This document shows, piece by piece, positions 19,330 to 20,720 of a stretch of 64,000 nt of DNA. Positions within the stretch are counted from its first letter, which is position 1. Every line of letters starts with the position of its first letter. Under the pieces are notes generated by a model. The model was not told where the DNA came from and ran no database searches. It saw only the letters and a program-made list of their open reading frames with translations. The DNA comes from Ylistrum balloti. Lineage: Eukaryota. The translations under genes were made by a program, and so were the position numbers. The stretch covers positions 303,634-367,633 of the forward strand of contig NW_026782349.1 of assembly GCF_031769215.1 (NCBI RefSeq), given 5' to 3'.

Positions 19330-20720
19330 TATTAGAAAATGGTAATGTGTTACATTACAAAATCCAAGGGGGTTACCAAAATCATTCAAGCGTGAAAGTC
19401 TGTATTAGCGAAAGAGCTGCACAAGGTTTTTTGCGACTAACTTGTATCTTCGCTTGAATTTCATAAACATTCAAACTGACAACTGTTCCTTAGATCCTTA
19501 GGACTTAGAAATCACCGAATCTTGCTATCTATCAACTTTATCATTATGCCCCGGCTGTCACAAGTACAGAGAGAAAGGGCTGTAGGCATGATCCAGGCTG
19601 GGGAGTCTCGCTGTGGAGTTGCACTGCATTTTGGTTGCAGTGTTAAGACAATTTGCCAGTTGGTAAGTCGTTCAAACCAAACTGGGTCAACATCTGATCG
19701 TCCCCGAAGCGGCCGACCCTGTAAAACGACCACCAGGGATGACCGTCGTATACGATTGATACACTTGCGCAATCGATTCGTAACTGCAGTAGAGACTACA
19801 AGGACATTGTTTGGGCGTCGTGTGTCTCCCCAAACAGTCCGCAACAGGTTGAGGGCCTACCAATTGAAAGCGCAACGTCCCTACACTGAACCCACTTTGT
19901 TGCAACGTCACCGTAATAATTGGCGTAACTGGACCTGTGTTCACAGTCGTTGGGCCTTACGACAATGGAACAATGTTCTGTTTTCAAATGAGTCCAGGTT
20001 TTGTCTGCAACACGGTGACGGAAGGCGCAGAGTGTGGAGGCGATTAGGGGAGCGTTTTGCAAACTGCTGCGTCGCAGAACGGGACTGCTTTGTAATGGTT
20101 TGGTGTGGTATTTGTGGGGGAACTCGTACCAGGCTTGTTGTGTTAAATGGCAATTTCACCGGCATTCGATATCGGGACGAAATTTTAAGACCAGTGGTTC
20201 TGCCATTCTTAAGACGCCATGGCGTTGGCGCCATTTTTCAACAGGATAACGCACCAGCGCACATCAGTCGCGTCAGCAGAACTTTCTTGCAGCAGAATAA
20301 CGTACAGGTGTTAGATTGGCTATCTAAATCACCTGATTTGTCACCGATTGAACATGTCTGGGACGTTCTTGGGCGACGCATGAGAGAACGTCAAAATCAG
20401 CCGTCAAACTGGCAGGAGCTGGCCCAAGTCTTGATCGCTGAATGGAACAACATCTCTCCTCGAATTATCGGCCAGTTTACGAGTTCCATGCGACGACTCT
20501 GCAATGCTGTTTATTTCACAAACGGTGGCCATACCTGTTACTAATGGTGTTACCTTTGAAATTGACCCCAACGTCCTTTACAGTCGAATAAAATCAACTG
20601 AACGCAAAGTTTTATAATGAACCATGACTGCAGTTTTATCAGAATTGATCAATTACTTTATTCGTACATGATTGGTAAGGATTTAAGAAGGGGTTAATTA
20701 ATCACAGAATAAAGTAGTGT
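19330..20720 (+). mobile_element. Tc1/mariner-family DNA transposon inserted in TEP1 intron 21 (same orientation); boundaries approximate, TIRs not resolved by eye
   Basis: GC/CpG-rich island of about 50% GC sits in a 33% GC intron and contains a transposase ORF with Tc1 hallmarks. Repeated gtgttacc motifs lie near 19350, 20547 and 20718. Confidence 0.7.
19522..20544 (+). CDS. Tc1-like transposase, 340 aa, uninterrupted; probable true start MPRLSQV at 19546; catalytic triad reads N-D-E (first Asp replaced by Asn)
   Basis: N-terminal HTH/GRP-type motifs (SGRPCKTT) are present. VLFSNESRF replaces the canonical FSDESxF. FQQDNAPAH and SPDLSPIEHVWD are intact; the D-to-E spacing of about 34-35 residues is typical of Tc1. 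Confidence 0.85.
   Translation: MLSINFIIMPRLSQVQRERAVGMIQAGESRCGVALHFGCSVKTICQLVSRSNQTGSTSDRPRSGRPCKTTTRDDRRIRLIHLRNRFVTAVETTRTLFGRRVSPQTVRNRLRAYQLKAQRPYTEPTLLQRHRNNWRNWTCVHSRWALRQWNNVLFSNESRFCLQHGDGRRRVWRRLGERFANCCVAERDCFVMVWCGICGGTRTRLVVLNGNFTGIRYRDEILRPVVLPFLRRHGVGAIFQQDNAPAHISRVSRTFLQQNNVQVLDWLSKSPDLSPIEHVWDVLGRRMRERQNQPSNWQELAQVLIAEWNNISPRIIGQFTSSMRRLCNAVYFTNGGHTCY

What the first reader, a model, noticed from the sequence alone, without database searches (positions are those of the whole stretch)
19330..20720. Tc1/mariner copy with intact 340-aa ORF but Asn at the first catalytic Asp (N-D-E), and GC content far above the host intron
The transposase has no stops or frameshifts, and its HTH, FQQDNAPAH and SPDLSPIEHVWD motifs are conserved. 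VLFSNESRF replaces the canonical FSDESxF, so the DDE triad reads N-D-E; in other DDE transposases loss of a catalytic Asp typically inactivates cleavage. The element is also about 50% GC and CpG-rich inside a 33% GC intron. This argues for a young, possibly horizontally acquired insertion that has not equilibrated. It could be a non-autonomous copy or a family with a DNA-binding-competent, catalytically dead transposase.
Basis: partly seen in the sequence, partly recalled or inferred. Interest (0 to 1): 0.55.

Follow-up and report, generated by a model that had tools for sequence, protein, structure and literature searches.

The report
Decaying Tc1 transposon copy, private Asp-to-Asn
This is an ordinary dead copy of a young Tc1-type jumping gene sitting in a host intron. 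The asparagine at the catalytic site is one of about 55 random mutations private to this copy, not a feature of the family, whose consensus still encodes a normal D-D-E enzyme.

Summary
A 1,495-bp Tc1/mariner (DD34E) element lies at 19249-20743, with 22-nt terminal inverted repeats (TIRs) and TA target-site duplications (TSDs). It carries an open 332-aa ORF from the ATG (340 aa from an upstream TTG). Asn148 aligns with the first catalytic Asp, D153 of Sleeping Beauty. The element is GC- and CpG-rich compared with its intron.

Six other copies of the same family came from public assemblies. They give a 1,511-bp consensus whose ORF is an intact 336-aa transposase with FSDESRF (GAT) and the Tc1 GGGS strip. 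The window copy differs from that consensus by:
- 55 substitutions (3.7%), 17 of them CpG-to-TpG/CpA transitions;
- a 12-bp in-frame deletion that removes GGGS;
- a 4-bp deletion in the 3' non-coding part.

dN/dS is 0.81. The 31 residue changes match the 30.7 expected from random mutation. All 120 homologues whose motif could be scored have Asp.

The compositional contrast is not evidence of horizontal transfer. An intact LINE in the same window has CpG o/e 0.97, against a background of 0.21.

Verdict: a neutrally decaying, non-autonomous copy that may still be mobilisable in trans. Low interest.

The parts
19247..19248 (.). Left TA target-site duplication
   Evidence: Copies with unrelated flanks (L001, L003, L004) all begin TA|TACTCAAC. 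Inverted-repeat arms were reported as 19247-19270 and 20722-20745.
19249..20743 (+). Complete Tc1-like (DD34E) element, 1,495 bp. Decayed copy of a 1,511-bp family.
   Evidence: Aligns end to end with L001 and L003-L007. Differs from the consensus by 55 substitutions and two deletions. It is the only copy in the window.
19249..19270 (+). 5' terminal inverted repeat (TACTCAACAAAAAAAGAAAGGT), identical to the family consensus
   Evidence: The first difference from the consensus is at 19324.
19546..20544 (+). Transposase ORF, 332 aa plus stop (mechanical ORF from TTG at 19522 = 340 aa). Open, but a pseudogene by content.
19987..19989 (+). Codon AAT = Asn148 at the first catalytic Asp. The consensus and the six other copies have GAT. 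The change is a private G-to-A at 19987, not in a CpG.
20090..20092 (+). Junction of a private 12-bp in-frame deletion (TGGCGGCGGAAG) that removes GGGS of the Tc1 glycine-rich strip
   Evidence: The GGG corresponds to SB residues 188-190.
20245..20247 (+). Second catalytic Asp (D234, GAT), retained
20350..20352 (+). Catalytic Glu (E269, GAA), retained. There are 34 residues between D234 and E269, i.e. DD34E.
20692..20693 (+). Junction of a private 4-bp deletion in the 3' non-coding part
20722..20743 (-). 3' terminal inverted repeat (TACTAAACAAAAAAAGAAAGGT on the minus strand), identical to the consensus. The one mismatch with the 5' arm is shared by L001, L003 and L005, the three copies that reach this end.
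20744..20745 (.). Right TA target-site duplication
18832..19032 (+). Upstream host exon (as far as the ORF shows it), encoding a P-loop ...GLVGKPGTGKSAVM and followed by a GTAAGG donor
   Evidence: Homologues carry PF20703. A homologous exon lies in L008 at 176-368.
20888..21063 (+). Downstream host exon (ASLVHSYVESS...EVPEDF), after the AG acceptor at 20886-87. The host intron 19033-20887 is 1,855 bp, of which 1,497 bp is the element plus one TA.
   Evidence: read in frame. A homologous exon lies in L008 at 625-815, separated there by an intron of only about 256 bp with no transposon.

Best explanation
A Tc1-family (DD34E) cut-and-paste DNA transposon inserted at a TA dinucleotide in a roughly 358-bp intron of a host STAND/NACHT-like P-loop gene, in the same orientation as the gene. 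After insertion it has evolved with no selection on its ORF. It gained 55 substitutions, about a third of them CpG deamination transitions as expected for methylated DNA in this strongly CpG-depleted genome, plus two small deletions. One random substitution (GAT to AAT at 19987) happens to change the first catalytic Asp. A 12-bp deletion removes the GGGS glycine strip. Ten further conserved positions or catalytic-domain arginines are also replaced. The encoded protein is almost certainly inactive (inferred). Both terminal repeats are identical to the consensus, so the copy could still be moved in trans by the intact 336-aa transposase the family encodes elsewhere (inferred). Shown here: boundaries, TSD, family consensus, private status of every change, neutrality statistics. 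Inferred: loss of activity, methylation as the cause of the CpG bias, trans-mobilisability.
For: - Boundaries: TIRs and TA TSD come from the inverted repeat and from four copies with unrelated flanks.
- Family consensus: L003, L004 and L006 are identical to the consensus. L005, L007 and L001 are 0.28%, 0.19% and 0.79% from it; the window copy is 3.68% from it. The consensus ORF equals P0121, an intact 336-aa protein found with the exact same sequence in four runs. It has FSDESRF, GGGS, QQDNA and SPIEH.
- Mutation spectrum: 17 of 55 substitutions are CpG-to-TpG/CpA, and CpGs drop from 92 to 69. My arithmetic from those counts gives 9.2% per CpG base against 1.4% transitions per other base.
- Neutrality: dN/dS is 0.81. 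Observed replacements are 31, against 30.7 +/- 2.8 in 20,000 random-mutation simulations with the same spectrum. The chance of hitting a catalytic residue is about 20%, and of acquiring no stop about 7%.
- Conserved positions: the window protein deviates at 12 of 100 columns that are at least 90% conserved in 17 homologues. These include R126W, D148N, the GGG deletion, G-to-C, L-to-F, P-to-L, R-to-L and R-to-C.
- Domain scores: DDE_3 falls from 64.1 bits (consensus) to 41.1 bits (window).
- Wider family: 120 of 120 scorable homologues have Asp. No protein closer than 88% to the window ORF, and none with Asn, was among the best 120 hits of the 5.8-billion-cluster search.
Against: - The host genome itself could not be searched. 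I cannot show that no other copy in that genome shares the Asn codon or the 12-bp deletion, for example if this dead copy was itself trans-mobilised.
- The reference copies come from sequencing runs of unknown taxonomy. Some of the 55 differences could therefore be subfamily-level rather than post-insertion.
- An open 999-nt frame after 43 coding substitutions and a deletion is somewhat unlikely. It is about 7% for the substitutions, times about one-third for an in-frame deletion. That leaves a little room for weak constraint.
- dN/dS of 0.81 on 12 synonymous and 31 nonsynonymous changes has a wide error.
Confidence: 0.9

Rival explanations
1. One reading: the family as a whole encodes an N-D-E protein that is catalytically dead but binds DNA, acting as a regulator or a domesticated protein.
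For: The ORF is open over 332 codons, and the second Asp and the Glu are retained. The chance of no stop under random mutation is only about 7%.
Against: - The six other copies and the consensus have GAT (Asp), and 120 of 120 scorable homologues have Asp.
- dN/dS is 0.81 and the replacements equal the random expectation.
- The DNA-binding domain itself carries six replacements, and its HTH scores drop.
- The TIRs and TSD are those of an ordinary insertion in an intron.
Confidence: 0.02
2. The element is a recent horizontal arrival, which would explain why it is GC- and CpG-rich in a GC-poor, CpG-poor genome.
For: - The family consensus has CpG o/e 1.16 and 45.9% GC, against a background of 0.21 and 35.1%.
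- Copies are 0-0.8% from the consensus in five or more independent runs, so the family amplified recently.
- Horizontal transfer is common for Tc1/mariner (general knowledge).
Against: - An intact LINE in the same window (51675-56874) shows the same contrast, with CpG o/e 0.97 and 41.7% GC. Composition therefore marks any young TE here.
- The GC excess is confined to the coding part (52.4%). The element's non-coding ends are 30-34% GC, like the host.
- The taxonomy of the runs carrying the other copies could not be obtained.
- This particular copy is the oldest of the seven.
Confidence: 0.25
3. The Asn codon is a sequencing or assembly error in an otherwise functional copy.
For: It is a single-base difference (G to A at 19987).
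Against: The same copy carries 54 other substitutions, a 12-bp deletion of GGGS and a 4-bp deletion, with a CpG-decay spectrum typical of real germline mutation. Even with Asp restored the protein would lack the glycine strip and ten other conserved residues.
Confidence: 0.02
4. The dead but open ORF is expressed and acts as a dominant-negative inhibitor of the family's active transposase, in the manner of KP repressors of P elements or overproduction inhibition.
For: The ORF is open with its own ATG. The N-terminal part and the dimerisation-relevant regions are partly preserved.
Against: There is no sign of selection. The clamp-loop glycine strip implicated in dimer formation is deleted. There are no expression data, and the element lies inside an intron.
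Confidence: 0.03

Closest known systems
Tc1 family (DD34E) of the Tc1/mariner superfamily, e.g. Sleeping Beauty, Tc1, Tc3, Minos
   Same: - TA target-site duplication, short TIRs and a single ORF.
- Paired-like HTH N-terminus plus a DDE_3 catalytic domain.
- 34 residues between the second Asp and the Glu.
- The Tc1-specific glycine-rich strip, present in the family consensus.
- Best solved-structure match is the SB100X catalytic domain, E = 2.8e-27.
   Different: - TIRs are about 22-27 bp with termini TACTC...GAGTA-like, not the roughly 230-bp IR/DR ends of Sleeping Beauty.
- The nearest database proteins outside the family are only 61-67% identical (P0001, P0003), so it is a distinct, apparently unnamed Tc1 lineage.
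- This copy has N-D-E and lacks GGGS.
Inactive 'fossil' Tc1/mariner copies, such as the salmonid elements from which Sleeping Beauty was reconstructed, and most genomic mariner copies
   Same: A copy that has drifted from an active consensus by point mutations, including catalytic and DNA-binding residues. Function is recoverable only by reverting to the consensus.
   Different: Here the active consensus is still directly observable as an intact ORF in several datasets (P0121), so no reconstruction is needed. This copy happens to have acquired no stop codon.
Domesticated or regulatory transposase derivatives with altered triads (e.g. SETMAR with DDN, CENP-B/pogo derivatives, P-element KP repressor)
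   Same: A Tc1/mariner-type protein with an altered catalytic triad and an open frame.
   Different: Those are under purifying selection, are fixed, and are usually syntenic across species. This one shows neutral evolution, a private mutation, intact TIRs and TSD, and an intronic position.

Membership tests
Tc1/mariner superfamily, Tc1 (DD34E) family | TA target-site duplication flanking the element | tested here: met
   TA at 19247-48 and 20744-45. The same junctions occur in L001, L003, L004 and L005 with unrelated flanks.
Tc1/mariner superfamily, Tc1 (DD34E) family | Terminal inverted repeats | tested here: met
   22-nt arms with one mismatch between them, at 19249-19270 and 20722-20743. 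Zero matches expected by chance.
Tc1/mariner superfamily, Tc1 (DD34E) family | Single ORF with an N-terminal paired-like HTH DNA-binding domain and a C-terminal DDE/RNase-H-fold domain | tested here: met
   Pfam HTH_23 and DDE_3 pass their cut-offs, with HTH_Tnp_Tc3_2 just below its own. SB100X catalytic domain matches at E = 2.8e-27.
Tc1/mariner superfamily, Tc1 (DD34E) family | Catalytic triad D, D, E with 34 residues between the second D and E | tested here: not met
   The spacing is met (D234-E269). The first position is Asn148 in this copy. The family consensus P0121 has D148/D238/E273. So the family is a member; this copy is a mutated member.
Tc1/mariner superfamily, Tc1 (DD34E) family | [quoted passage not shown] | tested here: not met
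   GGGS is present in the consensus and in 105 of 136 related proteins by motif scan. It is deleted in the window copy by a 12-bp deletion. Its role is described in PMC4820933.
Autonomous (active) transposon copy | ORF equal or close to the family consensus, with conserved residues intact | tested here: not met
   31 replacements plus a 4-aa deletion. The copy deviates at 12 of 100 conserved columns. Enzymatic inactivity itself is not testable with these tools.
Catalytically dead or domesticated transposase family | The altered catalytic residue is shared by family members or orthologues | tested here: not met
   The six other copies have GAT and 120 of 120 scorable homologues have Asp.
Catalytically dead or domesticated transposase family | Purifying selection on the ORF (dN/dS well below 1) | tested here: not met
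   dN/dS is 0.81. Replacements equal the random expectation.
Catalytically dead or domesticated transposase family | Loss of TIRs and a conserved syntenic position across species | tested here: not met
   TIRs and TSD are intact. The one homologous host locus recovered (L008) has a 256-bp intron with no element.
Horizontally transferred transposon | Composition atypical compared with other young resident TEs of the same genome | tested here: not met
   The LINE at 51675-56874 has CpG o/e 0.97 and 41.7% GC. The Tc1 copy has 0.95 and 44.1%.
Horizontally transferred transposon | Near-identical copies in distantly related hosts, or a patchy distribution | not testable with these tools
   The other copies come from runs ERR9287632, SRR27911157, SRR27911161, SRR35248297, SRR35248298 and assembly ERZ650156. 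Their organisms could not be retrieved.

The most novel reading that the evidence does not exclude
The open N-D-E ORF is not just luck. On this reading, the copy (or a lineage of copies sharing the Asn and the glycine-strip deletion in the host genome) is expressed and damps the activity of a Tc1 family that recently invaded a heavily CpG-methylated invertebrate genome, acting as a self-encoded dominant-negative regulator. The evidence does not strictly exclude this, because the host genome and its transcriptome could not be searched and an open frame had only about a 2-7% chance under neutrality.
Probability: 0.03. Interest if true: 0.5.

Novelty: new member of a known kind. Interest (0 to 1): 0.08.

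Why it matters
It matters little beyond annotation.

- It shows that an open transposase ORF with an altered catalytic residue should be compared with the family consensus before being read as a variant enzyme.
- By-products: (1) a complete consensus (1,511 bp, intact 336-aa DD34E transposase P0121) of an apparently recently active Tc1 family, which could be tested as a transposon tool or used for repeat masking; (2) a clean example of CpG-biased decay of a TE copy in a genome with very strong CpG depletion.

Tried and rejected
- Other copies in the window: none by blastn, tblastn or a TIR pattern search.
- Exact look-up of the window ORF in the gene-position index and the 15-billion-protein collection: absent.
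- Exact-pattern scans of JGI metagenome contigs, GTDB genome contigs and IMG/VR, using the motif region and the 5' TIR: 0 hits in all five scans. These collections appear not to hold this eukaryote.
- Host identification failed by two routes.
  - A 126-aa translation of the two flanking host exons gave only unnamed hits of 90% identity or less, some with PF20703.
  - The LINE ORF2 gave hits of 40% identity or less. The named ones are mostly 'MAG' contigs of bivalve-symbiont bacteria, probably host contamination, plus a snail and an insect at 23%. This is only a weak hint of a molluscan host.
- Full-text search for the run accessions: 0 papers.
- I first read the region around ERDCF/VMVW as substitutions, as in the phmmer alignment to Sleeping Beauty. 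The family alignment shows it is a 12-bp deletion.
- A translate call on the downstream exon was one base out of frame. It was corrected by reading.
- No structure prediction or representative-library search was run, because the sequence evidence was already decisive.

Full report
**1. What is in the sequence**

The region holds a complete Tc1-like DNA transposon, larger than the coordinates given.
- An inverted repeat pairs 19247-19270 with 20722-20745. The 22-nt core TACTMAACAAAAAAAGAAAGGT occurs only at these two places in the window, with none expected by chance.
- Copies with unrelated flanks place the element at 19249-20743 (1,495 bp), flanked by duplicated TA at 19247-48 and 20744-45.
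- The ORF listed mechanically from TTG 19522 is 340 aa and ends at 20544. The real start is the ATG at 19546 (332 aa), which matches the MPRLS N-terminus of every homologue.
- Pfam gives DDE_3 and HTH_23 above their cut-offs, and HTH_Tnp_Tc3_2 just below its own.

**2. The N-D-E reading is correct for this copy**

- phmmer against solved structures gives the Sleeping Beauty SB100X catalytic domain as best match (E = 2.8e-27).
- It aligns window N148, D234 and E269 with the residues the SB structure paper names as catalytic: D153, D244 and E279 (PMC4820933 read).
- There are 34 residues between the second Asp and the Glu, so this is a DD34E (Tc1-family) element.
- The Asn codon is AAT at 19987-19989.

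**3. Is Asn a family trait? No**

- A search of 5.8 billion protein clusters with the window ORF found 983 relatives. The closest are P0002 (87% identity over 72% of the query), P0001 (67%) and P0003 (61%).
- In an alignment with 17 of them, every sequence has Asp at this column. A motif scan of all proteins fetched found Asp in 120 of 120 scorable sequences.
- P0002's contig (L001) is a second copy of the same element, with the same TIRs and TA junctions but different flanks. It is 95.5% identical to the window copy and has GAT at this codon.
- P0002's 90%-identity cluster also contains P0121, an intact 336-aa protein. P0121 is encoded with an identical sequence on contigs from four different sequencing runs (L003-L006). 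A further copy, L007, has its own 5-bp insertion.
- Aligning all seven copies gives a 1,511-bp consensus whose ORF is exactly P0121. It contains FSDESRF, GGGS, FQQDNAPAH and SPDLSPIEH.

**4. The copy is decaying neutrally**

- Divergence from the consensus is 55 substitutions (3.68%) for the window copy. It also has a 12-bp in-frame deletion and a 4-bp deletion in the 3' non-coding part. The other copies are 0-0.79% diverged.
- Seventeen of the 55 substitutions are CpG-to-TpG or CpG-to-CpA, and the copy has 69 CpGs against 92 in the consensus. From these counts, transitions hit about 9.2% of CpG bases against about 1.4% of other bases. That is the signature of deamination of methylated CpG, and it fits a background CpG o/e of 0.21.
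- In the coding region there are 43 substitutions and 31 residue replacements, 15 of them at arginine CGN codons.
- Nei-Gojobori dN/dS is 0.81.
- I ran 20,000 simulations applying the same number and spectrum of mutations at random to the consensus ORF. They gave:
  - 30.7 +/- 2.8 replacements, against 31 observed;
  - a 20% chance of changing one of the three catalytic residues;
  - a 7% chance of creating no stop codon.
- The window protein is the odd one out at 12 of 100 columns that are at least 90% conserved among the 17 homologues. These include R126W, D148N, the three glycines, and G-to-C, L-to-F, P-to-L, R-to-L, A-to-T and R-to-C changes.
- The 12-bp deletion removes GGGS. [quoted passage not shown]
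- The DDE_3 score falls from 64.1 bits (consensus) to 41.1 bits. HTH_28 falls from 33.4 to 18.6 bits. The DNA-binding part is therefore degraded too, with R23C, R24G, R27L, L43S, R59C and A63T.
- The open frame is best explained by chance plus ascertainment. The L001 and L007 copies, though much less diverged, already carry frameshifts.

**5. Composition and the horizontal-transfer idea**

| Region | GC | CpG o/e |
|---|---|---|
| ORF | 49.6% | 0.95 |
| Whole element | 44.1% | 0.95 |
| Rest of the intron | 30.3% | 0.37 |
| Window without the two TEs | 35.1% | 0.21 |
| LINE, 51675-56874 | 41.7% | 0.97 |

- The contrast is not specific to this element. The window also holds a non-LTR retrotransposon with intact ORF1 (560 aa) and ORF2 (1,177 aa, endonuclease plus reverse transcriptase) on the minus strand at 51675-56874. 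It shows the same contrast.
- The Tc1's non-coding ends are 30-34% GC, like the host.
- High CpG and GC here therefore mean 'younger than the CpG-depleted background, and coding', not 'foreign'.
- The family did amplify recently, given near-identical copies in several datasets. Horizontal transfer remains possible, as for any Tc1/mariner family. I could not test it because the organisms behind the runs are unknown.

**6. Context**

- The element sits in the sense orientation in an intron (19033-20887) of a host gene.
- The flanking exons encode ...GLVGKPGTGKSAVM | ASLVHSYVESS..., a P-loop NTPase. Its homologues carry the STAND-type domain PF20703.
- A homologous locus from another dataset (L008, about 77% nucleotide identity in both exons) has only about 256 bp between the exons and no transposon.
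- Removing the element and one TA leaves a 358-bp intron.

**7. Mechanism**

- *Shown:* a TA-targeted Tc1 insertion, with subsequent neutral, CpG-biased decay.
- *Inferred:*
  - The encoded protein is inactive. It lacks the first metal-binding Asp and the glycine strip, and has ten other conserved-site changes.
  - The copy is non-autonomous. Its first 75 bp and last 50 bp are identical to the consensus, so it may still be excised by the family's intact transposase.

**8. Comparison, novelty and score**

- The family passes every structural test for the Tc1 (DD34E) family. This copy fails the triad and glycine-strip tests only because of private mutations.
- It is not a domesticated or regulatory transposase. 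The change is not shared, there is no purifying selection, and the TIRs are retained.
- The lineage is only 61-67% identical to the nearest other proteins in the database. It is probably an uncatalogued Tc1 family, that is, a new member of a known kind.
- A specialist would not be surprised by a mutated Tc1 copy.
- Interest 0.08.

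Noticed in passing
window 51675-56874 (minus strand): Apparently intact non-LTR (LINE) retrotransposon. ORF1 is 560 aa (55192-56874, no Pfam hit). It overlaps by 17 nt an ORF2 of 1,177 aa with Exo_endo_phos endonuclease and RVT_1 domains. CpG o/e is 0.97 against a background of 0.21, so it is young. The closest database proteins are only 35-40% identical, several of them on 'MAG' contigs of lucinid-clam symbionts (Thiodiazotropha, Sedimenticola) that look like host contamination.
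   Followed up: partly
whole window, excluding 19249-20743 and about 51000-57500: Very strong CpG depletion of the background (CpG o/e 0.21 at 35% GC; 0.12-0.23 in most 4-kb bins) with a TpG+CpA excess. This implies heavy germline methylation across introns and intergenic DNA, which is unusual for many invertebrates. The host species was not identified.
   Followed up: partly
window 10047-11611, 13066-14920, 25546-26099, 33005-33585, 34748-35700, 39467-39876, 41246-43354, 47807-49806, 57372-58039, 61581-63998: At least ten minisatellite or satellite arrays, with periods from 21 to 97 bp and up to 80 copies (a 30-bp unit over 2.4 kb at the window end). They create long spurious ORFs on both strands.
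   Followed up: no
window 18832-19032 and 20888-21063; L008 176-368 and 625-815: The host gene interrupted by the element encodes a P-loop (GKPGTGKS) STAND-type NTPase; its homologues carry PF20703. A 77%-identical paralogue or orthologue in runs SRR27895284 and SRR26445941 has a short, transposon-free intron at the same position.
   Followed up: partly
L001 1-190: The left flank of the L001 copy (ENA assembly ERZ650156) switches abruptly from AT-rich to very GC-rich sequence (GGCGCGGAAGTACGCGC...CGGCAACC). This may be a chimeric metagenome contig or another repeat.
   Followed up: no
L002 (P0001) and the P0003 cluster: Sister Tc1 lineages at 67% and 61% protein identity share almost the same outer TIR (TATACTCAACAAAAAAAGAAAC in L002). 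P0003's cluster has 40 members on 32 contigs. So a group of related Tc1 families with conserved termini is abundant in the same kind of datasets.
   Followed up: no
window 20587-20592 and 20709-20714: AATAAA polyadenylation-like hexamers lie in the sense orientation within the element's 3' part, inside the host intron. They could in principle cause premature termination of the host transcript.
   Followed up: no
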